This document shows, piece after piece, positions 215-18,060 of a stretch of 18,060 nt of DNA. Each line of letters starts with the position of its first letter. The first letter of the stretch is position 1. Source of the DNA: Patescibacteria group bacterium (GTDB lineage Bacteria; Patescibacteriota; Minisyncoccia; Sungbacterales; JBBTQR01); assembly GCA_038065595.1 (NCBI GenBank), contig JBBTQR010000017.1, forward strand, positions 1-18,060, read 5' to 3'. A model generated the notes under the pieces. The model had not been told where the DNA came from. It did no database searches and was given only the letters and a program-made list of their open reading frames with translations. The position numbers and the translations under genes are program-made.

Positions 215-580
215 ATGAGCATATATATGTGTGCACATTACCCAGAACTCTTGACATCGCTGACACTTCAGCACTTTCGATATATCTCAAAGACAAAACA
301 CAGGACGTTCACCCTCGACAATGGAACTGAGTTTAGCGATTGGGAACGGCTCGAAAAGAAGAGTGGAGCAACGGTATATTTCGCATACCCCTATCACTTC
401 TGGGGGCGTGGCAGCAACGAGAATACGAACGGTCTCTTGCGGCAGTACTTTCCAAAATCGTACGACTTCAATCTCATCACGGCCGAGGAATTGGCACAGG
501 TGGTACGCCGGTTGAACGAGCGCCCACGGAAGAGACTTGATTTCCAGAGTCCGAAACAGATGTTTTTTAAAAAGAGCTAG
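215..580 (+). pseudogene. IS30-family transposase, C-terminal DDE-domain fragment (5'-truncated remnant)
   Basis: The translation TLDNGTEF…VYFAYPYHFWGRGSNENTNGLLRQYFPKSYDF…LNERPRKRLDFQSPKQMF matches, from memory, the conserved C-terminal half of IS30 transposases (DNGxEF … NENTNGLxRxYFPKG … NxRPRK). The frame stays open upstream only to a stop at 173-175. No catalytic N-terminal half (HTH, first D) is visible in any frame of 1-214, so this is a truncated remnant, not an intact IS. Confidence 0.75.
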
Positions 581-3666: not shown

Positions 3667-3692
3667 ACCTCGCCACGCGCGAGGTTTTTTTG
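3667..3692. terminator. Rho-independent terminator (probably bidirectional)
   Basis: Hairpin cctcgc-cacgc-gcgagg followed by TTTTTTT. It lies between the convergent genes ending at 3646 (+) and 3702 (-). Confidence 0.65.
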
Positions 3693-3701
3693 TATAAAAA
3701 A

Positions 3702-4946
3702 CTACTCATACCGCAACGCTTCAATGGGGCTTTTAAGCGATGCTTTTCGCGCGGGATAAATTCCAAAAACAAGCCCCGTAAGCGTGGAGATGCCCACTGC
3801 TAAAAATATAGAGTTCAGCGAAAGAATAAATATCCAACCGGTCGTGAGAAATTGCTGAAGTGCAAAATACGCAAGCGCAACAACCAAAGAACCAAGCGCG
3901 ATTCCGATTATTCCCCCAGCAAAAGTAAGAATTACCGCCTCCAATAAAAACTGCTGGAGAATGTCGCCATTCGTAGCGCCGACCGCTTTCCGAAGTCCTA
4001 TTTCTTTCGTTCGCTCAACAACAGACACAAGCATAATATTCATAATTCCGATACCGCCGACAATAAGCGAAATGAAAGCGATTGATGTCAAAAAAATAGT
4101 CATAATGGAAGTGATATTTCCTAAGAGCGAAAGGGCGTCTTCCTGCGTTCGAATGGAAAAATCATCTTTATCCGGATCGGTAATGCGATGATTTTGGCGA
4201 ATAACAGAGGTAATGCGCCCCTTTGTAAATTCAATGATGTAAGCGTCATTTGCTTGAATAGTAACGCTGTTGTAATAATCAATTCCTAAAAGTTGTTTTT
4301 GCGCGAGTAAAATCGGAAGAAGAATGAGATTATCCTGATCAACCCCGAAAGGCCCGATCCCCTTCTGCTCTAAAATACCAACGACGCGAAACGAAAGATC
4401 TTTAAGACGAATAACTTTACCAATTGGGTCTTTCTCGCCAAAAAGTGTTCGTGCGATTTCTGAACCAAGCACGGCAACGCGATTAAGGGATTCATTGTCC
4501 GATGCAGAAAAACTTCTTCCCCGTGCGATTTCAAAATTCCGTATGGCGAAAAATTCTTCCGTCGTTCCTGTATAGGTAATCATTGCGTCGTTATTTTCAT
4601 AGACAACCCGTGCCTGTCCGCGAACCTCTGGAGCAGCGCGAATAACACTCGGTTCGCGCCTGAGCGCATCAATGTCCGCTTTCACGAGCGTTTTAATGAT
4701 TACTCCTTGCACCGACGCAGGAGAAGCAAATCTAGAGCCTTTTGTAGCGCCCGGAACGACAAAAATTAAATTTGATCCTATTCCCTGCACCTGACTTAAA
4801 ATAAGATTTTGCGCGGAAGCGCCGATTGACATAAGAACGATAACCGATGATATGCCAATAATAACACCGAGCATCGTCAATGCGGAGCGAACTTTTGCGT
4901 GCCGAATGCCGGCAACTGCCGTTCTAAAAGAATCAATAAGGCGCAT
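3702..4946 (-). CDS. ABC transporter permease, MacB/FtsX family (MacB periplasmic domain + FtsX 4-TM domain)
   Basis: 414 aa. It has an N-terminal TM helix, a large extracytoplasmic domain, and three C-terminal TM helices in the FtsX arrangement. It sits downstream of an ABC ATPase and a membrane-fusion protein. Confidence 0.85.
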   Translation of the reverse strand: MRLIDSFRTAVAGIRHAKVRSALTMLGVIIGISSVIVLMSIGASAQNLILSQVQGIGSNLIFVVPGATKGSRFASPASVQGVIIKTLVKADIDALRREPSVIRAAPEVRGQARVVYENNDAMITYTGTTEEFFAIRNFEIARGRSFSASDNESLNRVAVLGSEIARTLFGEKDPIGKVIRLKDLSFRVVGILEQKGIGPFGVDQDNLILLPILLAQKQLLGIDYYNSVTIQANDAYIIEFTKGRITSVIRQNHRITDPDKDDFSIRTQEDALSLLGNITSIMTIFLTSIAFISLIVGGIGIMNIMLVSVVERTKEIGLRKAVGATNGDILQQFLLEAVILTFAGGIIGIALGSLVVALAYFALQQFLTTGWIFILSLNSIFLAVGISTLTGLVFGIYPARKASLKSPIEALRYE

Positions 4947-7329: not shown

Positions 7330-7992
7330 TTAATGATTTAGCATTTCCAGCAAAATTGGCTTGATTCTGTCGGCGATTATGCGATACCCCTCATCATTTG
7401 GATGTATTGCATCGTACATATAACGAGAACGCCCAAAAACGCCAGAAAGAACATCGGGGATATACGAAACTTTTGTTTTTTGCGCGAGAGATTTAAATTC
7501 TTTTTTATACGCGTCAGAAAAAAACCCGCCACGGACCCCCAAAAGTAATACGGCGCTTCCCTGCGCGTGAATACGGGCGATTATCTCTTCTAAATTTCTA
7601 AATGTGTCCAAAGGTTTGTAACGGCGAATTGCATCATTTCCACCCAAAAGCAAAATAACGATTTTTGGATCATGATTCAAAACATCCAGCGAAACGCGCG
7701 TAAGAGCGGAAAATGTCGTATCGCCGGAAATTCCTGCGTTAATAATTGGTATTTTTAATTCTTGCGACAACAGCGAAACAAGATCATTGCCCTGCGATGA
7801 TCCAACTCCCTCAATTAAACTATCTCCAAAAGCAATAACCGCGCTTCCTGTGCGCGGTTTGTCAATGTATCGGCGATCCATTGAAAAAAAATAAAAAACA
7901 CCTCCCAAAATCAGGACGCCAAACACCGCAATTATTACTTGTGAATTTGTCATGCGCACAGAGCGTGTGCTATTATATATACTCGCATCCAT
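7330..7992 (-). CDS. SGNH/GDSL-family hydrolase (lipase/esterase-like) with N-terminal membrane anchor
   Basis: SGNH blocks: block I FGDSL, block III GGND, block V DAIHPN. An N-terminal TM helix is present. An alternative start (MTNSQ…) lies 13 codons in. Confidence 0.85.
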   Translation of the reverse strand: MDASIYNSTRSVRMTNSQVIIAVFGVLILGGVFYFFSMDRRYIDKPRTGSAVIAFGDSLIEGVGSSQGNDLVSLLSQELKIPIINAGISGDTTFSALTRVSLDVLNHDPKIVILLLGGNDAIRRYKPLDTFRNLEEIIARIHAQGSAVLLLGVRGGFFSDAYKKEFKSLAQKTKVSYIPDVLSGVFGRSRYMYDAIHPNDEGYRIIADRIKPILLEMLNH

Positions 7993-8139
7993 TATACCCG
8001 ACCGAGGGCATTTTTTATAATATATATCTGAACTTATGCGATATGTGGTGGACGCATACAGGCGCTTGATAAATTAAAATTTTAAGCGTACTACTAAAAA
8101 CACGCCCTTTGATATCATGCCAAAATAAGGAGGGATTCT

Positions 8140-8262
8140 ATGGATGCTTTTTTAACAAACGCAGAGCTTGTCGTAATAAATTTTTCCATTTCATTATTTT
8201 GGGTTTTGCTCGTTGTGCTTGTTGCCCTAGCATTTTTCAGCCTTATTGATAATCGCGATTAA
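8140..8262 (+). CDS. 40-aa hydrophobic membrane peptide (toxin-like or bacteriocin-like small protein)
   Basis: Not in the ORF track because it is under 60 aa. A strong SD (AAGGAGGG, 6 nt) precedes the ATG at 8140. It encodes MDAFLTNAELVVINFSISLFWVLLVVLVALAFFSLIDNRD, a single TM helix with a charged C-terminus. It contains the 33-nt repeat shared with the sigma gene. Confidence 0.5.
   Translation: MDAFLTNAELVVINFSISLFWVLLVVLVALAFFSLIDNRD
8166..8198. repeat. 33-bp perfect direct repeat, copy 1 (inside the small-peptide ORF)
   Basis: gcttgtcgtaataaatttttccatttcattatt is identical at 8166-8198 and 14969-15001. In this AT-rich window a 33-nt perfect match is far beyond chance expectation. Confidence 0.9.
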
Positions 8263-8274
8263 AGGAGAAACGCT

Positions 8275-8502
8275 GTGACTACTTTGGAAATCGCATGCTT
8301 GATTTGGATAATTTCTCTTCTTGTTGTTATAACCATTGCTTTCGTGGATAATTTTTTGTATCCTGTCTGCCCCTCTTGTGAGCATAACCTGTATTCACGA
8401 CGATTATCATTTTTTTCTCCCGATGCACTGTGCAAAAAACATGGCACATTCATCATTGCTCTCGCGCATCGCTCTATTTGTTCTGTGACGCACAAAAAAT
8501 AA
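8275..8502 (+). CDS. 75-aa membrane protein with CPSC…C…C motif, function unknown
   Basis: GTG start with an AAAGGAG SD 7 nt upstream, 12 nt after the upstream stop. It has an N-terminal TM helix and is followed by a strong terminator. Confidence 0.5.
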   Translation: MTTLEIACLIWIISLLVVITIAFVDNFLYPVCPSCEHNLYSRRLSFFSPDALCKKHGTFIIALAHRSICSVTHKK

Positions 8503-8515
8503 TAATATCTCGGCA

Positions 8516-8556
8516 TTAAAAACGCCCCGCTTAATTTGAGCGGGGTGTATTTTTAG
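8516..8556. terminator. Rho-independent terminator (bidirectional)
   Basis: Stem cgccccgct (8523-8531) / agcggggtg (8539-8547) with an A-run before and a T-run after. A second hairpin, gttttcgc-tttg-gcgaaaac, at 8578-8596 lies just downstream of the minus-strand gene ending at 8606. Confidence 0.7.
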
Positions 8557-8605
8557 TTCATACCATATAAAAATACAGTTTTCGCTTTGCGAAAACGGTC
8601 CAAAC

Positions 8606-8800
8606 TTATTCTTTACGAGATTTCCAAAAAAGAATAATCGCCAACATTCCAAAAAAAGCTGTGCCAACTCCGCTTACCCACATAGGAATGCTAACCGTTT
8701 CAAATAAAATCTCCCATAAAAAAAGAACGCGGGCAAAGTGCGCAATCGCGATAAAAGCAAAAATCGTTCCAGAAATTTTATGCAGTGTTTTATTCGTCAT
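8606..8800 (-). CDS. Small 2-TM membrane protein, hypothetical
   Basis: ATG at 8800 (MTNKTLHK…) is preceded by an AAAGGAG SD. The longer track ORF extends to 8836. Two hydrophobic helices are present. Confidence 0.5.
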   Translation of the reverse strand: MTNKTLHKISGTIFAFIAIAHFARVLFLWEILFETVSIPMWVSGVGTAFFGMLAIILFWKSRKE

Positions 8801-8967: not shown

Positions 8968-10281
8968 TTAGACCGCTTTTGCCGCCTCTTCAACGGTAGT
9001 GACCCCCATTAAAACTTTTTCACGAGCGGCGTCTTTCAATGTTTTCATGTTGGCACTCGCAACATATTCTTCAAGAACGCTCATTGAGCTTCGCTCAATT
9101 ATTAACGAACGAAGATTGTTGTCAAGTTCTAAAACCTCATAAATGCCCGTCCGCCCCTGATACCCAGTTCCTCTGCACGCCTCACATCCCATCCCTTTTG
9201 TAAACGAGTATGAATTTTCATCAAGCCCAAAATACAAAAGATATTCAGGATCCGGCACATACGATGAACGACATGTATTACAAATTTTTCTAATAAGTCG
9301 CTGGGAAACAATTCCGTTTAAAGCATATGCAATTAAACTTCGCTCAATATTCATATCTAAAAGACGGGCGATTGTTCCGATGGTCGTATTTGAATGAATC
9401 GTTGAAAACACAAGTCGTCCGGTCAAAGAAGCGCGGATAGTATATTCCGCTGTATCAGCATCTCGAATTTCGCCAATCATAATGATATCAGGATCCTGAC
9501 GAAGAATTGAACGCATGCCGTCTGCATAATTATATCCCTGATCAGGTTTAATTTCGCTCTGCCTAATATCTTTGAAGTGATATTCAACGGGGTCTTCAAG
9601 GGTTATAATGTTTTTTTCTTTTGAACGCAAAGACTGCAGAATTGAATACAGCGTCGTTGATTTGCCTGACCCTGCCGGACCCGTTACAAGAATCATTCCA
9701 TATGTTCGCGCAATCAATTTTTTAAATACCCCAAAATTCTCGGGGCTCATTCCAAGGTTTTCAGGATGCACCAATACTTCTTGCCGATTCAAAACACGCA
9801 AGACGGTCGCTTCACCGTTAATGACGGGGAAAACAGAAACACGAACATCAAGCATCATCTCGCTATTTTTTGAAGCATCCAGAACCGCTCCGACTTTCTC
9901 TTGCTTTTTTTGATCAGTGGCCTTTGCGATAATAAAAAGCTTTGAAAGCCTGTCAACGAACGGCACAGATTTTTCGTCTCCTTGCTCTGAGTACAACTGC
10001 CCAACGCTTGCTGAAAAGTGCCCTTCAACGGGCATTGGATGACGAACGAGAGGAATGTCAGATGCGATTTTAATGCGGTTTAAAATAGATTCGTACTCAT
10101 ACAGCGGAATAGACGCGTGTTCCTGTAAAATTCCATCAACACGAAAACGAATGCGGAGAACATCTAATAATGGCTCAATGTGAATATCGGAAGCACGATC
10201 TTCAAGCGCGCTCGCGAGAATTATTTTGAGAGGATCTTCGTTTTTTAAATCATTCTTTTGTAACATAAAAGTTTTACGCAA
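8968..10281 (-). CDS. Type II secretion / type IV pilus assembly ATPase, GspE/PilB family
   Basis: Walker A GPAGSGKSTT, Asp/His boxes (IMIGEIRD, TIHSNT), and a C-terminal tetracysteine motif CNTCR…CEACRGTG. The position 10281 start is a TTG, and an ATG (MLQKNDL…) lies at 10266. No pilC/pilT/pilM partners are in the window. Confidence 0.9.
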   Translation of the reverse strand: MRKTFMLQKNDLKNEDPLKIILASALEDRASDIHIEPLLDVLRIRFRVDGILQEHASIPLYEYESILNRIKIASDIPLVRHPMPVEGHFSASVGQLYSEQGDEKSVPFVDRLSKLFIIAKATDQKKQEKVGAVLDASKNSEMMLDVRVSVFPVINGEATVLRVLNRQEVLVHPENLGMSPENFGVFKKLIARTYGMILVTGPAGSGKSTTLYSILQSLRSKEKNIITLEDPVEYHFKDIRQSEIKPDQGYNYADGMRSILRQDPDIIMIGEIRDADTAEYTIRASLTGRLVFSTIHSNTTIGTIARLLDMNIERSLIAYALNGIVSQRLIRKICNTCRSSYVPDPEYLLYFGLDENSYSFTKGMGCEACRGTGYQGRTGIYEVLELDNNLRSLIIERSSMSVLEEYVASANMKTLKDAAREKVLMGVTTVEEAAKAV

Positions 10282-13154: not shown

Positions 13155-13183
13155 TAGACGAAGTAAGCTGGATTTTCTTACAA
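13155..13183 (-). promoter_or_regulatory. Candidate ECF-sigma-type promoter (TGTAAG-N16-CGTCTA)
   Basis: The minus strand reads TTGTAAG (13183..13177), a 16-nt spacer, and CGTC (13160..13157). This resembles the SigW/SigX/SigM-class consensus TGwAAC-N16-17-CGTC/CGTA. It lies about 30 nt upstream of the secreted-repeat protein gene. Confidence 0.4.
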
Positions 13184-13235: not shown

Positions 13236-14429
13236 CTATTCCATAAATTCGCTTTTTTTATGGGCCTTTTCGCGCATTTCATCTTTTAGAGGGCTTTTAA
13301 TTTTTTCGCCGGAGGCGGACACGCCTTGTTCATTTTCTGATCCTCGTTCATCGTTTGTATCATTTAAATCACGCCCCCGCTTCTTTTCTTGTTTCTCGGT
13401 GCGGTCTCTTCGTATTTCGTTTTTATTTTCATTATGATTATTGTCCCCATTTTCCTCTATTGAAACCTGTATGTGAAATTCCTTATTTGCATTGATCAAT
13501 ACCCGCGCCCTTTCAAGCGTTCTCATCGCTTTCTGAAAAAGCGAAAAGGCTTTGCCGTATTTCCCCTCATTTTGTTTCGTTTTCCCTTCGGCAATTATTT
13601 CAATTACACCTGAAAGTCGTTTTTTTATTTCGTCTGTTGCCAAATCTCCCGATCCTAATGCGATGCCGTCAATAAACGCGTTCATTTCCTGAAGTTTTTT
13701 TTCTACTTCCACACGCATATCTTCGGAAGATTTTTTTGCTTTGTCGTCTTTTTTGTTTTCAATATTTTCTTCTAAATTTTTTCTTTTTTTACCAACTTCC
13801 CGTATAGCATTTTGCGCCGATACGGTAATTGGCGCAAGCGCATAATCCGAATCCGCGTCATCTTCGGTTAATTTTTGAAGGATTTTATCATGCGCCTCAA
13901 GTTCCGCCTCAAAATTAGAATTAATGCGCGCTGCGACTTCAAAATCTCCACCATTTTCAATGGTTGCTATTTTTATTTCTGCGTTTTTACGATGCTCGTT
14001 GAATTTTTCCTGAAGGGCTAAGCGAACCTCTGGCGTAATAATTCTTTTTTCAACCGTCAATCGTTCGGACTCTTCCAGTCGTTTTGTAGCAAGTTTTGTT
14101 TCCCATTCTACCCTTGATTTTGGAGAAAATTTTAACAATCCACGAATCTCTTCGTTTACATTAATTTTTACCGGATACAGAATATCTCCGGGAAGCGTTC
14201 CCTCTGCTCCAAATGCGATTCCCGCTCCCGAAAGCATGCTTGCGATAAGCACGAGTGGAACGGTTCTGTGTATCGCGAAAAACGCGAAAAGCTGGTCGCG
14301 TAATGCCACGCGAATCGGTGGGCGATATGCGTGCATATAAATGCGAAGCTCATTTCTAACGCGCGCGCGTTCATTTTCGGCAAGAGATATATTTTTCGCT
14401 TGCTGTATTATTTCGTGAAAGTTTTTCAT
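13236..14429 (-). CDS. Putative membrane-anchored anti-sigma factor (short cytoplasmic N-domain, 1 TM, long coiled-coil/charged ectodomain; possibly DUF5667-like)
   Basis: It has an ATGA overlap with the upstream ECF sigma gene. A single TM helix lies around residues 60-80 (LVLIASMLSGAGIAFGA). The K/E-rich helical extracytoplasmic region ends in a low-complexity acidic/basic tail. Confidence 0.55.
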   Translation of the reverse strand: MKNFHEIIQQAKNISLAENERARVRNELRIYMHAYRPPIRVALRDQLFAFFAIHRTVPLVLIASMLSGAGIAFGAEGTLPGDILYPVKINVNEEIRGLLKFSPKSRVEWETKLATKRLEESERLTVEKRIITPEVRLALQEKFNEHRKNAEIKIATIENGGDFEVAARINSNFEAELEAHDKILQKLTEDDADSDYALAPITVSAQNAIREVGKKRKNLEENIENKKDDKAKKSSEDMRVEVEKKLQEMNAFIDGIALGSGDLATDEIKKRLSGVIEIIAEGKTKQNEGKYGKAFSLFQKAMRTLERARVLINANKEFHIQVSIEENGDNNHNENKNEIRRDRTEKQEKKRGRDLNDTNDERGSENEQGVSASGEKIKSPLKDEMREKAHKKSEFME

Positions 14430-14992
14430 ATTTCAAAAATATGTTTTACCGATTGTAATCCTCGATGAATACGCACTGAAACGGCGTTTTCGCTTTCATT
14501 CAAAATCTTGGCAATTTCGCTAGGCGACATATCATCAACATACCGCATAATTACAACATCCCGATATTTTTTATCAATGGAATTAATCGCTTCAATGACC
14601 TCGCGTGTTTCAGCCGAATGACGCATAGCGATGTGTCCGGCTATCGCGGGATCAAAACCAAATTCTTCCTGCATTGTATCCAAAGATTCTTCTCGTTTTT
14701 TCTTCCAGTCATCAATGATTAAATTATTGGCAACTTTATATAAAAACGCTCTGATGTTGGTAACTTCATTGCCGGAAGCAAGATATTCCCATGTCTTTGT
14801 ATACGCTTCCTGCATTACATCGCGCGCGATTTCTTCGTCATATACACGGAAAAAACAATGCCTAAATATGGCGTCAGAATGTTCATCGTATGCATTAATA
14901 AACGGTATTAAACCATTTGTTCCGACGGCACGCTGAGGAGGTGTGCGGAAGCGCCCACCTCCCTCATCGCTTGTCGTAATAAATTTTTCCAT
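14426..14992 (-). CDS. ECF (group IV) RNA polymerase sigma-70 factor
   Basis: Region 2 is FRHCFFRVYDEEIARDVMQEAYTKTWEYL. Region 4 HTH is DVVIMRYVDDMSPSEIAKILNESENAVSVRIHRGLQSVK. The start is ambiguous between the ATG at 14992 (MEKFITTS…) and a TTG at 15058. Confidence 0.9.
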   Translation of the reverse strand: MEKFITTSDEGGGRFRTPPQRAVGTNGLIPFINAYDEHSDAIFRHCFFRVYDEEIARDVMQEAYTKTWEYLASGNEVTNIRAFLYKVANNLIIDDWKKKREESLDTMQEEFGFDPAIAGHIAMRHSAETREVIEAINSIDKKYRDVVIMRYVDDMSPSEIAKILNESENAVSVRIHRGLQSVKHIFEI

Positions 14993-15001
14993 TTCATTAT
15001 T
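14969..15001. repeat. 33-bp perfect direct repeat, copy 2 (covers the ECF sigma ATG and first 8 codons on the opposite strand)
   Basis: The same 33-mer as at 8166-8198. On the minus strand it reads AATAATGAA-ATG GAA AAA TTT ATT ACG ACA AGC, which is nt -9 to +24 of the sigma start. Confidence 0.9.
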
Positions 15002-15155
15002 ACCCGTATTGTTCTTTATATAAGACGAAATAATGCCATATTTCTTACGCAAAAACAATGCAAAATGGCAAGAGTATAAACTCCTGTTTTTTTTAAAACC
15101 CCCTCATTCCCGTCTGTTTATATAAAGATTTTTTATACTGGCAAGCAAAAAACTA

Positions 15156-15181
15156 CCAATAAAAACAAGTGTTTTTATTGG
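15156..15181 (-). terminator. AT-rich hairpin followed by a T-run on the minus strand (possible terminator or insulator upstream of the sigma promoter)
   Basis: ccaataaaaac-aagt-gtttttattgg is an 11-bp stem. On the minus strand it is followed by TAGTTTTTTG. Confidence 0.3.
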
Positions 15182-15254
15182 TACAAAAAAGTTATCCACA
15201 GTTATGCATACAATTACACTTGCGTATTTTTTTCGCAGTGATAGACTATAAAAT

Positions 15255-15345
15255 GTAACTTAGGTTACATCGTTCTTTCATCTCGGGGCTTCGGTCCCAC
15301 ATTTTCTCTTCTTGGGGTTTGCTACGGCAAACCCTTTTTATTTTA
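15255..15345 (+). ncRNA. Candidate ~90-nt small RNA (three hairpins including a C(UUCG)G tetraloop, with an intrinsic terminator)
   Basis: On the + strand the first hairpin is gtaac-ttag-gttac (15257-15270). The second is gggGC-UUCG-GUccc (a 5-bp stem with a G-U wobble and a UUCG tetraloop). The third is the terminator ggggtttgc-tacg-gcaaaccc followed by TTTTTATTTT (15314-15345). A weak upstream promoter reads TTGCGT-N16-TAGACT (15220-15247). There is no ORF, and it is antisense to the flanking minus-strand genes. Confidence 0.35.
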
Positions 15346-15784
15346 ACTAGACTAGATATGATCATTTCTCACGATAGAACAAAAACCGCCAAATGCGTGT
15401 GCACATTACCTTCCGGTTCCACATGGACCACGGCATTGCTTGCGTCAATTGTCGGAGAACGATGAGTTGTTTTTGGAGTAGAACGAATTCCCAAGCTTGT
15501 TACATTTGGAGCAAAAAATCTTAATACATATAAATAGGCGTATACATTCGCGCATTCTAAAATTCTTATGGCGGGACCGACACTCAGACTTCCCCAAGAA
15601 GCTCCATTCAATAAAATTCTCGTTTCAGCGGCCGCCGATACTATGTTAAAAGGTCTGGTTCTACAATTAAAAATCGGGGGGCACTTGTCATCCCGATACA
15701 AAACCAAATCTGGAAAATAAAAAAAACCGCAAACGAAAAATTAAATATAGAAAAATTCGACGGGTTTGCGTTTGTTCCACTTGT

Positions 15785-15821
15785 TTAAAAAATCCCCAAT
15801 TCGCGATATCGCGAATTGGGG
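15785..15821 (-). terminator. Rho-independent terminator of the flotillin-like gene
   Basis: A 28-nt perfect palindrome ccccaattcgcgat|atcgcgaattgggg (15793-15820). On the minus strand it is followed by ATTTTTTAAAC, and it lies 36 nt after the stop at 15857. Confidence 0.75.
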
Positions 15822-17830: not shown

Positions 17831-18060
17831 CTGAATCCCCCTTCCAATATGGTTGATTTAATTAGAAAAAATTGATTTTCAATGTTCAATTTGAGAGCTT
17901 ATATTGTACTATATTATTTATATTTTGTAAAGCATGCAAAAGGCGACTTCAACAATCTTTACATGGTATGAATTATTCGCTATTCTAAAACATAGTTTTG
18001 TTATGCTTTATTACGGCTAGCGATGAGCGAAATGAAGCCAGCAAGGATTCATTTCGTCAG

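What the first reader, a model, noticed from the sequence alone, without database searches (positions are those of the whole stretch)
8166..8198. Perfect 33-nt complementarity between a small-peptide mRNA and the start region of the ECF sigma factor mRNA
The 33-mer gcttgtcgtaataaatttttccatttcattatt occurs twice on the + strand, at 8166-8198 and 14969-15001. Copy 1 lies inside a + strand, SD-driven 40-aa hydrophobic peptide ORF. Copy 2 lies on the strand opposite the minus-strand ECF sigma gene, spanning exactly nt -9 to +24 around its most plausible ATG (MEKFITTS). The two mRNAs would therefore form a perfect 33-bp duplex over the sigma factor's ribosome-binding footprint. That is the geometry of a trans-encoded antisense regulator, with the peptide mRNA acting as a dual-function sRNA. 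Alternatively it is the junction of a recent duplication or recombination event. Similarity does not extend beyond the 33 nt on either side (ttgg… vs accc… downstream), which argues against a simple long duplication. It may be a conserved regulatory 'address tag'.
Basis: seen in the sequence. Interest (0 to 1): 0.75.

Follow-up and report, generated by a model that had tools for sequence, protein, structure and literature searches.

The report
Stray copy of sigma-gene start
A 33-base piece of a sigma-factor gene's start region has recently been copied into new DNA in front of a small-protein gene 6.8 kb away; the two messenger RNAs could therefore pair perfectly, but nothing shows that this pairing is a selected regulator and not a by-product of genome rearrangement.

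Summary
The exact 33-mer occurs at 8166-8198 and 14969-15001 and identity stops sharply at both ends. Five assemblies and two k=31 unitigs of the same Patescibacteria population carry it.

Copy 2 is the original. It covers -9 to +24 of the ECF sigma start, and the closest relative has an orthologous start with 25 of 33 bases identical. A conserved ECF-type promoter motif shows that the upstream TTG codons are not the start.

Copy 1 is derived. It lies in about 135 nt of extra DNA that only this lineage has. That DNA sits between the inherited promoter, 5'UTR, SD and ATG of a conserved small-protein gene and the gene's coding body (the 75-aa ORF, dN/dS about 0.2). The 40-aa 'peptide gene' is an orphan upstream ORF made from the inherited SD and ATG plus the inserted DNA.

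The relative has no such copy. A second, older 24-nt patch from the same sigma segment lies 73 nt beyond another synteny breakpoint.

The most likely reading is a recent ectopic templated copy. The 33-bp mRNA:mRNA duplex (-44.7 kcal/mol) is physically real if both RNAs are made, so regulation is possible but has no conservation support. Interest is modest.

The parts
14969..15001 (-). Copy 2, the source copy: the sigma mRNA translation-initiation region, -9 to +24 around ATG 14992 (AAUAAUGAA AUG GAA AAA UUU AUU ACG ACA AGC).
   Evidence: Exact match. It is orthologous to the sigma start of the relative L005, with 83% identity over window 15065-14964 and 25 of 33 bases identical in the 33-mer itself.
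8166..8198 (+). Copy 1, the derived ectopic copy. It lies antisense to the sigma sense strand and forms codons 9-20 of the 40-aa upstream ORF.
   Evidence: It lies in DNA that the relative L008 lacks.
8140..8262 (+). Orphan 40-aa hydrophobic ORF. It is a lineage-specific upstream ORF built from the inherited SD and ATG plus about 135 nt of extra DNA (8140/8143 to 8274/8277).
   Evidence: It forms a singleton cluster and is the only hit among 1.84e9 representative proteins. The two start regions both read AAGGAG-N7-[A/G]TG and lie exactly 135 nt apart.
8065..8134 (+). Promoter-like element (TTGATA 8066-8071, 17-nt spacer, TACTAC 8089-8094), 5'UTR and SD inherited from the small-protein gene cassette.
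   Evidence: Homologous to L008 8396-8313 (TTGACA-17-TACAAT ... AAGGGAGG). Local alignment score 24 against a shuffle null of 10.1 +/- 1.5. The -10 element lacks the final T, so promoter strength is uncertain.
8275..8502 (+). Conserved 75-aa small membrane protein gene with a CPxC motif. It is the downstream gene of the bicistron.
   Evidence: Homologous to an ORF that was not called as a gene in L008, at 8065-8307(-), 80 aa. Amino-acid identity is 54% and dN/dS is about 0.2.
8522..8548 (.). Bidirectional intrinsic terminator that closes the small-gene cassette.
   Evidence: It is conserved in L008.
14426..14992 (-). ECF sigma factor gene (188 aa). The first 30 residues lie outside the conserved sigma domains.
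   Evidence: Pfam Sigma70_r2 and r4_2. TIGR02937 scores 73.7 bits against a cut-off of 42.9, matching from residue 35; other sigma families match from residue 31.
15024..15048 (-). ECF-type promoter-like motif GTAAGAAA-N11-TTCGTC upstream of sigma. It predicts a transcription start near 15017 and a 5'UTR of about 25 nt without an SD.
   Evidence: Conserved in L005 and L015. A second copy lies before the DUF5666 gene at 13157-13181, and that copy is also conserved in L005.
14903..14983 (-). 81-nt in-frame insertion in the sigma 5' coding region, absent from the relatives. It is bounded by imperfect 21-nt direct repeats (14983-14963 and 14902-14882) and overlaps the coding end of the 33-mer.
18007..18030 (+). 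Third, partial and inverted copy of the same sigma segment (TTTATTACGGCTAGCGATGAGCGA, 21 of 24 bases). It lies 73 nt beyond another synteny breakpoint at 17934.
   Evidence: I7; 0 of 200 shuffles. One search gives score 18 against a null of 11.0 +/- 1.2. Breakpoint.
8024..8566 (.). Lineage-specific replacement segment. The relatives have a class A beta-lactamase-like gene here. The window has the relocated small-gene cassette instead.
   Evidence: Homology to L008 stops at window 8019 and resumes at 8567. L008 and the third lineage L013 agree with each other beyond 8023.

Best explanation
Copy 1 is a recent ectopic copy, a short templated patch, of the translation-start segment of the ECF sigma gene.

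Shown: the sigma locus is the ancestral home of the sequence. Copy 1 lies in about 135 nt of extra DNA that only this lineage carries. That DNA is wedged between the inherited promoter, 5'UTR, SD and ATG of a conserved small-protein gene and the gene's coding body. The gene cassette itself sits at a different site from where it sits in the relative, and here it replaces a beta-lactamase-like gene. The 40-aa ORF is therefore an accidental upstream ORF that borrows the old SD and ATG. Its hydrophobicity follows from the T-rich strand.

Inferred: the patch arose by template switching or illegitimate recombination in a lineage that was rearranging heavily. That lineage also shows IS30 debris, a decayed PCMT gene, loss of DUF2238, an 81-nt insertion in the sigma 5' end and a second, older patch from the same donor.

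Consequence, inferred and not shown: if the bicistronic small-gene mRNA and the sigma mRNA are present in the same cell, they can form a perfect 33-bp duplex over -9 to +24 of an SD-less start. That would block initiation or invite double-strand cleavage of one or both RNAs. I regard this as an incidental, evolutionarily young interaction and not a demonstrated regulator.
For: - **Ancestral position of copy 2.** Its position and sequence are ancestral.
- **No counterpart of copy 1.** The relative's reconstructed 26-kb locus (L005 plus L008, which overlap identically) has no repeat of its own sigma start and no equivalent of the 40-aa ORF.
- **Inherited start signals.** Window 8065-8133 is homologous to the relative's promoter, UTR and SD of the 80-aa gene, z = 9.4. 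The 75-aa gene is conserved with dN/dS about 0.2.
- **Orphan ORF.** The 40-aa ORF has no homologue.
- **Breakpoints.** They lie at 8019-8023 and 8567, and two outgroup lineages agree with each other there.
- **Relocated cassette.** The filled and empty sites of the cassette are visible.
- **Second patch.** A 24-nt patch from the same donor lies next to another breakpoint.
- **Other rearrangement traces.** An IS30 transposase fragment and IS-related repeats, and the 81-nt insertion abutting the donor segment.
- **Duplex strength.** Duplex energy is -44.7 kcal/mol and the combined opening cost is about 9.7 kcal/mol.
Against: - **Unlikely geometry by chance.** A random 33-nt donor segment would cover a start codon only a few percent of the time, and it would be antisense to local transcription half of the time. 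I estimate the combined chance as roughly 2%.
- **Exact identity.** Both copies are identical in all five assemblies, although synonymous divergence from the relative is about saturated. The copy is therefore either very recent or conserved. Ascertainment favours exact copies, so this does not decide the matter.
- **Unknown donors.** The source of the other roughly 100 nt of extra DNA is unknown, and junction microhomology cannot be assessed without the pre-insertion sequence.
- **No expression data.** None exist here, so a real regulatory effect is not excluded.
Confidence: 0.6

Rival explanations
1. Functional trans-antisense pairing between two mRNAs. The 40-aa/75-aa bicistronic mRNA base-pairs over the sigma start region and represses sigma translation. 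That would set a threshold on the self-activating ECF circuit. Alternatively, induced sigma mRNA could destroy the small-gene mRNA.
For: - A perfect 33-bp complement centred on the start codon of an SD-less leader.
- A net duplex energy of about -35 kcal/mol after opening costs.
- The downstream 75-aa gene is under purifying selection, so some + strand transcription across copy 1 is expected.
- A terminator and partly conserved promoter elements are present.
- Both copies are invariant in five assemblies.
- Trans-acting mRNAs and antisense stretches of about 30 nt are known, for example hly-prsA2 (PMC8722363) and dinQ/agrB with 30 of 31 nt (PMC3567139).
Against: - The pairing is not conserved. 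The closest relative has both genes but no complementarity.
- The ORF is an orphan.
- The SD was inherited and not evolved for this ORF.
- The inherited -10 box has lost its final T.
- No ECF promoter motif lies upstream of the small operon, so no feedback wiring is visible.
- A second, non-antisense patch from the same donor points to a mutational bias and not to selection.
Confidence: 0.25
2. A type I toxin-antitoxin-like pair. The 40-aa transmembrane peptide would be a toxin whose mRNA is neutralised by pairing with the sigma mRNA leader.
For: The ORF is small and has a single hydrophobic helix (19-residue hydropathy windows reach 2.8), a strong SD, and about 30 nt of complementarity as in dinQ/agrB.
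Against: - No dedicated antisense RNA gene exists. The partner is a housekeeping-type regulator mRNA 6.8 kb away.
- The peptide is net acidic, read directly from the sequence.
- It is an orphan and was created by an insertion into another gene's start region.
- Pairing lies in codons 9-20 and not at the ribosome binding site.
Confidence: 0.04
3. Recombination site. The two direct repeats would be attL/attR-like cores, or substrates for programmed excision, of the 6.8-kb segment that carries the sigma operon and the T2SSE ATPase gene.
For: Identical direct repeats with sharp borders flank a discrete segment. The Logan unitig L003 equals exactly the inter-repeat unit.
Against: - The relative has the same genes contiguous across both borders, so the segment is ancestral chromosome and not an insert.
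- No integrase or recombinase domain is found in the main ORFs of the segment.
- The L012 assembly reads straight through copy 1.
- A unitig that breaks at a 33-nt repeat is expected at k=31.
Confidence: 0.04
4. A shared DNA operator, or an RNA-binding-protein site, duplicated so that the two loci are co-regulated.
For: Three loci share the core TTTATTACGRCWAGC.
Against: - Exact identity over 33 nt with random flanks is not how operators look.
- The sequence has no clear dyad symmetry.
- The relative has no second copy.
Confidence: 0.04
5. Assembly or chimera artefact, suggested because 33 is a SPAdes k value.
For: The contig names indicate SPAdes assemblies.
Against: - Five assemblies from different samples agree.
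- Independent k=31 Logan unitigs from two runs end inside the repeat.
- L012 spans copy 1 with unique flanks.
- Synteny with the relative supports the sequence across copy 2.
Confidence: 0.01

Closest known systems
Trans-acting mRNA-mRNA pairing and dual-function RNAs (hly-prsA2 in Listeria; irvA-gbpC in S. mutans; SgrS, RNAIII and SR1-type dual-function sRNAs)
   Same: A protein-coding transcript carries a stretch complementary to another mRNA encoded elsewhere. Here the stretch covers the target's start codon, the classic repressive geometry. Source: PMC8722363.
   Different: The known cases have imperfect, conserved pairing with experimental proof. This one is perfect, 33 bp long and confined to one lineage. 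It lies inside the coding part of an orphan upstream ORF, and no expression or conservation evidence supports it.
Type I toxin-antitoxin loci with short trans-type complementarity (dinQ/agrB, tisB/istR-1, zorO/orzO, ralR/ralA)
   Same: A small hydrophobic ORF and a perfect or near-perfect antisense match of 16-31 nt made by a short repeated DNA segment (PMC3567139; abstracts of PMC3919570 and PMC4041452).
   Different: In those loci the antisense partner is a dedicated small RNA gene next to the toxin gene. Here the partner is the sigma mRNA 6.8 kb away, toxicity is unknown, and the ORF is an insertion-born upstream ORF.
Templated (filler) insertions and short ectopic duplications at rearrangement junctions (template switching or illegitimate recombination). 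This comparison rests on general knowledge, not on a paper read here.
   Same: A short exact copy of a sequence from nearby in the same genome, with sharp borders. It is embedded in lineage-specific extra DNA, in a region with several other breakpoints and IS debris.
   Different: The donor is a translation start region and was used twice (33-nt and 24-nt patches). Junction microhomology could not be assessed.
ECF sigma / anti-sigma modules with self-activating promoters
   Same: The sigma gene overlaps the start of a membrane DUF5667 gene. A conserved GTAAGAAA-N11-TTCGTC motif precedes both the sigma gene and the DUF5666 gene.
   Different: This is the context and not the finding itself. No antisense control of such a module is documented here.

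Membership tests
Trans-encoded base-pairing regulator / dual-function RNA | Extended complementarity to the target mRNA at or near its ribosome binding region | tested here: met
   33 of 33 nt complementary over -9 to +24 of the sigma start. Duplex energy -44.7 kcal/mol.
Trans-encoded base-pairing regulator / dual-function RNA | The regulator is made as a transcript with its own promoter and terminator | tested here: inconclusive
   A terminator lies at 8522-8548. The inherited promoter has TTGATA-17-TACTAC, with a -10 box lacking the final T. Another consensus match lies at 7947-7976. No RNA data are available.
Trans-encoded base-pairing regulator / dual-function RNA | The pairing is conserved or co-varies in related genomes | tested here: not met
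   The relative (L005 plus L008) has both genes but no copy of its own sigma start elsewhere in 26 kb and no 40-aa ORF.
Trans-encoded base-pairing regulator / dual-function RNA | A measurable effect on target translation or stability | not testable with these tools
   This needs a reporter fusion or RNA-seq.
Type I toxin-antitoxin (trans-type: dinQ/agrB, tisB/istR-1, zorO/orzO) | A small hydrophobic membrane peptide that is toxic when expressed | tested here: inconclusive
   40 aa with one hydrophobic helix. The peptide is net acidic, an orphan and insertion-born. Toxicity is not testable here.
Type I toxin-antitoxin (trans-type: dinQ/agrB, tisB/istR-1, zorO/orzO) | A dedicated small antisense RNA gene in the same locus | tested here: not met
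   The only complementary sequence in the window lies inside the sigma mRNA 6.8 kb away. Rfam finds nothing at the gathering thresholds in the window, and only chance-level matches below those thresholds at the locus.
Integrated mobile element bounded by att core repeats | Identical direct repeats at both ends | tested here: met
   33-nt exact direct repeats 6803 nt apart.
Integrated mobile element bounded by att core repeats | An integrase or recombinase encoded inside | tested here: not met
   Pfam scans of the main ORFs in the segment show sigma, DUF5667, DUF5666, C39_2 and T2SSE only. The 92-aa, 75-aa and 40-aa ORFs had no hits.
Integrated mobile element bounded by att core repeats | The segment is absent (empty site) in relatives | tested here: not met
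   The relative keeps Band_7 ... sigma ... T2SSE ... GDSL contiguous.
Templated ectopic patch at a rearrangement site | An identical donor sequence elsewhere in the genome whose position is ancestral | tested here: met
   The sigma start is orthologous in L005 and L015.
Templated ectopic patch at a rearrangement site | The recipient site is lineage-specific extra DNA relative to outgroups | tested here: met
   About 135 nt lie between the inherited SD/ATG and codon 2 of the conserved small gene. The surrounding segment 8024-8566 replaces a beta-lactamase-like gene.
Templated ectopic patch at a rearrangement site | Microhomology at the patch junctions | tested here: inconclusive
   The flanks share no bases with the donor flanks on the left and 9 of 16 on the right. 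The pre-insertion sequence is unknown.
IS / MITE insertion with target-site duplication | Terminal inverted repeats and a short target duplication | tested here: not met
   No terminal inverted repeats appear at the ends of the 135-nt extra DNA (sequence read). The only duplication is AAGGAG-N7-start. 33 nt is far longer than usual target duplications.
ECF sigma factor | Sigma-70 regions 2 and 4 only, and a match to the ECF superfamily model | tested here: met
   PF04542 and PF08281. TIGR02937 scores 73.7 bits, above the cut-off of 42.9.

The most novel reading that the evidence does not exclude
An antisense regulator caught at birth. A 33-nt templated patch copied from the sigma factor's start region into the leader ORF of a small-protein operon would have created at once a perfect mRNA:mRNA duplex. 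That duplex would couple the ECF sigma circuit and the small membrane-protein operon, with repression in either or both directions. It would be maintained in this Patescibacteria population because the coupling is useful.
Probability: 0.2. Interest if true: 0.6.

Novelty: new member of a known kind. Interest (0 to 1): 0.3.

Why it matters
If the duplex acts in vivo, this would be a dated, mechanistically transparent example of how a trans-antisense interaction can arise in one step, by short-patch copying of a target's start region. It would also be a rare post-transcriptional control of an ECF sigma factor in the uncultivated Patescibacteria. If it does not act, the locus is still a clean illustration of three things:

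- An orphan 'small peptide gene' with a perfect SD can be an accident of an insertion into another gene's start region.
- A conserved small gene was missed by the gene call on the relative's contig.
- Short exact repeats mark rearrangement history.

Tried and rejected
**Assembly artefact at k=33.** Rejected because five assemblies and k=31 unitigs agree.

**Dispersed repeat.** The 24-nt core and a degenerate 21-mer have no hits in GTDB representative genomes. The 24-nt core has none in IMG/VR and one hit in the metagenome collection, which is this same locus. The rest of this genome could not be searched, so dispersal within it is not excluded.

**Paralogous sigma pseudogene at copy 1 or at 18007.** tblastn finds only the 8-residue and 7-residue patches.

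**Mobile element with att sites.** Rejected on synteny and the lack of a recombinase.

**Remnant of the lost beta-lactamase-like gene in 8024-8566.** tblastn and blastn find nothing. A faint alignment of 8199-8262 to the first 70 nt of that gene is not significant (p about 0.17).

**The extra DNA as a diverged tandem duplication of the small gene's start region plus about 29 codons, with the 33-mer as a pure insertion.**
- In favour: the start regions are spaced exactly 135 nt apart. After removing the 33-mer, W..AF..DN lines up with the 75-aa N-terminus (p about 0.01).
- Against: there is no DNA-level signal and no signal against the relative's 80-aa protein.
- Left as inconclusive.

**Other donors for the rest of the extra DNA, or for the 60-nt core of the sigma insertion.** None found in the window or in related loci, and none for 8000-8290 in phage or plasmid collections.

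**Rfam.** No family reaches its gathering score in the window or at the small-gene locus. Beyond the window's 3' end only a tRNA matches.

**ECF promoter motif upstream of the small operon (a feedback loop).** Absent.

**Homologues of the 75-aa protein by word-indexed search.** Only the protein itself was found, because the relative's copy was never called as a gene. It was found by DNA alignment instead.

Full report
**1. The observation**

The 33-mer occurs exactly twice on the + strand, at 8166-8198 and 14969-15001. No shuffle of the window gave two matches, even with three mismatches allowed. In register, identity drops to background immediately on the left. On the right it is 9 of 16 over the next bases and then background. 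It is the only exact repeat of 18 nt or more in the window that is not a hairpin.

The window is a contig of a Patescibacteria genome assembled from metagenomes of Hainich groundwater well H41. The same sequence, 99.9% or more identical, is present in four other assemblies. L001, L002 and L014 carry both exact copies. L012 spans copy 1 with unique flanks. Two Logan k=31 contigs end inside the 33-mer, and one of them (L003, 6830 nt) is exactly the unit between the repeats. The repeat is therefore real, and the order of the flanks is supported.

**2. Copy 2 is the original, and it covers the true sigma start**

ORF 14426-14992(-) is an ECF sigma factor (Sigma70_r2 and r4_2; TIGR02937 above its cut-off). 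It overlaps the start of a membrane DUF5667 gene and is followed by DUF5666, C39-like peptidase and T2SSE ATPase genes.

The closest relative has 88% sigma identity (P0002; loci L005 to L007). Its promoter region and start align with window 15065-14964 at 83% identity. Within the 33-mer, 25 of 33 bases match (AATAATGAAATGGAGCAATTTGTTAAGGCATAT).

A third lineage, L015, shows the same conserved block. Inside that block lies the motif GTAAGAAA-N11-TTCGTC. It recurs before the DUF5666 gene in the window and in L005, and it precedes the sigma gene in L015. Chance expectation is 0.23 matches per window. I read it as the cognate ECF-type promoter. This is an inference from its resemblance to the TGTAAC-N16-CGTC type known from Bacillus ECF sigmas, recalled from my own knowledge.

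That reading puts the transcription start near 15017. The TTG codons at 15052 and 15058, one of which Prodigal chose, would then lie in or before the promoter. In addition, a 1-nt indel puts the conserved upstream DNA in a different frame in L005. ATG 14992 is the first in-frame start after the predicted transcription start, and it is the start PGAP uses (P0001). The leader is about 25 nt long and has no SD. Most genes here lack one. The 33-mer therefore spans -9 to +24 of the real start.

**3. Copy 1 is derived and sits in lineage-specific extra DNA**

The relative's contigs L005 and L008 overlap identically and together give 26 kb of the same region. The gene order Band_7 - sigma operon - T2SSE - GDSL esterase - MacAB is shared. 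Between T2SSE and GDSL, however, the relative has a 323-aa class A beta-lactamase-like gene. Homology to the window stops at 8019 on one side and 8567 on the other. A third lineage, L013, agrees with L008 beyond the 8023 breakpoint, so the window's state is the derived one.

What fills the gap in the window is a small-gene cassette. In L008 this cassette lies 4.5 kb away, directly after the MacB stop codon, where both the window and L013 have an empty site. Its gene is an 80-aa ORF that was not called as a gene in L008. It corresponds to the window's 75-aa ORF at 8275-8502, with 54% amino-acid identity, a shared CPxC...C motif and dN/dS of about 0.2. This explains why the protein search found no homologue.

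The decisive result is that window 8065-8133 is homologous to the relative's promoter, 5'UTR and SD of that 80-aa gene. The window stretch comprises a promoter-like TTGATA-17-TACTAC, the leader, and the AAGGAGG that precedes the 40-aa ORF. The relative has TTGACA-17-TACAAT ... AAGGGAGG-N5-ATG. The local alignment score is 24 against a shuffle null of 10.1 +/- 1.5.

The window therefore has about 135 nt of extra DNA between the inherited SD and ATG and codon 2 of the conserved gene. Both start regions read AAGGAG-N7-[A/G]TG and lie exactly 135 nt apart. The 40-aa ORF is this extra DNA read from the old start codon. It has no homologue among 1.84 billion representative proteins and forms a singleton cluster. 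Its strong SD is inherited, so it is not evidence that the ORF is a selected gene. Its hydrophobic helix is what a T-rich strand encodes (36% T). The 33-mer supplies 11 of its 40 codons.

**4. The donor region has been used more than once, in a lineage full of rearrangements**

- A 24-nt inverted patch, TTTATTACGGCTAGCGATGAGCGA, lies at 18007-18030. It matches sigma codons 4-11 at 21 of 24 bases (I7). A second match this close appeared in none of 200 shuffles, and the local score is 18 against a null of 11.0 +/- 1.2. It sits 73 nt beyond yet another synteny breakpoint at 17934.
- The sigma gene itself carries an 81-nt in-frame insertion (14983-14903) that both relatives lack. It is bounded by imperfect 21-nt repeats and overlaps the coding end of the 33-mer.
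- Upstream of sigma, the relative's PCMT gene is reduced to a 381-nt fragment and the DUF2238 gene is gone.
- An IS30 transposase fragment and IS-related repeats at 170-198 and 15383-15411 are present.
- No sigma pseudogene accompanies either patch.
- No donor was found for the rest of the extra DNA.

**5. What it most likely is and does**

Shown: copy 1 is a secondary, lineage-specific, sharply bounded copy of the sigma start segment, embedded in extra DNA at the start region of a relocated small gene.

Inferred: it arose by template switching or illegitimate recombination. It did not arise by decay of a long duplication, which would not leave 33 exact bases with random flanks.

The extra DNA may itself be a diverged tandem duplication of the small gene's start region plus about 29 codons, into which the 33-mer was inserted. 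The evidence for that is weak (p about 0.01 against the 75-aa N-terminus, no signal against the relative's protein, and none at the DNA level).

The consequence is that the two mRNAs are perfectly complementary over 33 nt. Duplex energy is -44.7 kcal/mol and the opening costs are about 5.2 and 4.4 kcal/mol. The 75-aa gene is under purifying selection and has lost nothing except the continuity of its leader. Some + strand transcription through copy 1 is therefore expected, although the inherited -10 box has lost its final T. Pairing over an SD-less start would be expected to block initiation, or to create a double-strand RNase substrate on both RNAs.

Whether this happens, and whether it is useful, is untested. 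Three points argue against a selected regulator:
- The relative has no such pairing.
- The ORF is an orphan.
- A second patch from the same donor is not antisense to anything known.

Two points argue for one:
- The geometry is unlikely by chance. I estimate roughly 2% for a random 33-nt donor that covers a start codon and lies in antisense orientation.
- Both copies are identical in all assemblies, although exact copies are the ones that get noticed.

My estimates are about 0.6 for a by-product with at most an incidental effect, about 0.25 for a working antisense pair, and small shares for the other rivals.

**6. Comparison with known systems**

The arrangement works like trans-acting mRNA-mRNA pairs and dual-function RNAs (hly-prsA2 and irvA-gbpC; PMC8722363). 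It also resembles type I toxin-antitoxin loci in which a short repeated segment gives about 30 nt of complementarity (dinQ/agrB, 30 of 31 nt; PMC3567139).

It fails the testable membership criteria for both. The pairing is not conserved, and there is no dedicated antisense RNA gene. It also fails the criteria for an att-bounded element, having no recombinase and no empty site in relatives. It meets the testable criteria for a templated ectopic patch.

**7. Verdict**

The repeat is real and the first-stage reader described it accurately. It is most likely a young rearrangement scar that happens to create a potential antisense pair. I classify it as a new instance of a known kind, with interest 0.3.

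Noticed in passing
window 15024-15048(-) and 13157-13181(-); L005 9944-9968 and 11893-11917; L015 236-260: The motif GTAAGAAA-N11-TTCGTC precedes both the sigma gene and the DUF5666 gene and is conserved in relatives. It is a candidate cognate ECF promoter and defines a minimal regulon. In the relatives an in-frame ATG sits right at the predicted transcription start (a leaderless-type start: MQNNTNNNEMEQF in L005, MATDENEQKTMEQF in L015). The window has ATA at that position.
   Followed up: partly
L008 8065-8307(-), with the cassette at about 7920-8400; window 8275-8502: A conserved small membrane protein gene of 75-80 aa with a CPxC motif was not called as a gene in the relative. It behaves as a promoter-gene-terminator cassette that occupies different sites in different lineages, with clean empty sites in the window (about 3690-3703) and in L013.
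   Followed up: partly
window 14903-14983(-): An 81-nt in-frame insertion in the sigma N-terminal region is absent from two related lineages. It is flanked by imperfect 21-nt repeats and contains a GC-rich hairpin (GGAGGTG...CACCTCC). It adds 27 residues before sigma region 2.
   Followed up: partly
window 18007-18030(+): A 24-nt inverted partial copy (21 of 24 bases) of sigma codons 4-11 lies 73 nt beyond a synteny breakpoint. The hairpin-rich non-coding DNA beyond it leads to a tRNA-Asn gene just outside the window (L001 99-173).
   Followed up: partly
window-wide start regions: Seventeen of 20 start regions examined lack an SD (one, the tRNA_bind gene, has only a GAGG tetramer), and many have a -10-like box 5-20 nt before the ATG, implying short leaders or leaderless mRNAs. 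Only the three small ORFs (40 aa, 75 aa, and 64 aa at 8606-8800) have a strong AGGAG.
   Followed up: partly
window 215-580(+), 157-256, 15383-15411: A C-terminal fragment of an IS30-family transposase (NF033563, E = 2e-33) and related repeat remnants are present. One remnant lies about 380 nt upstream of the sigma start, next to the truncated PCMT gene.
   Followed up: partly
window 15412-15792 and 15172-15349: These stretches are remnants of a protein-L-isoaspartate methyltransferase (PCMT) gene and its upstream flank that are intact in the relative. The relative's DUF2238 gene is missing entirely. The 112-aa ORF called at 15369-15707 has no Pfam hit and lies on the opposite strand to the relic.
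   Followed up: partly
window 8137 and 9905: Two population variants were seen. Position 8137 is T in the window and G in four other assemblies, and it lies between the SD and the ATG of the 40-aa ORF. A 1-nt deletion at 9905 appears in two assemblies. In L002 it splits the T2SSE ATPase gene into 136-aa and 295-aa ORFs.
   Followed up: no
L008 2578-3549(-), versus window 8024-8566: A class A beta-lactamase-like gene lies between T2SSE and GDSL in the relative, and the GDSL-side flank of the third lineage (L013) matches the relative there. It has been cleanly lost from the window's lineage.
   Followed up: yes
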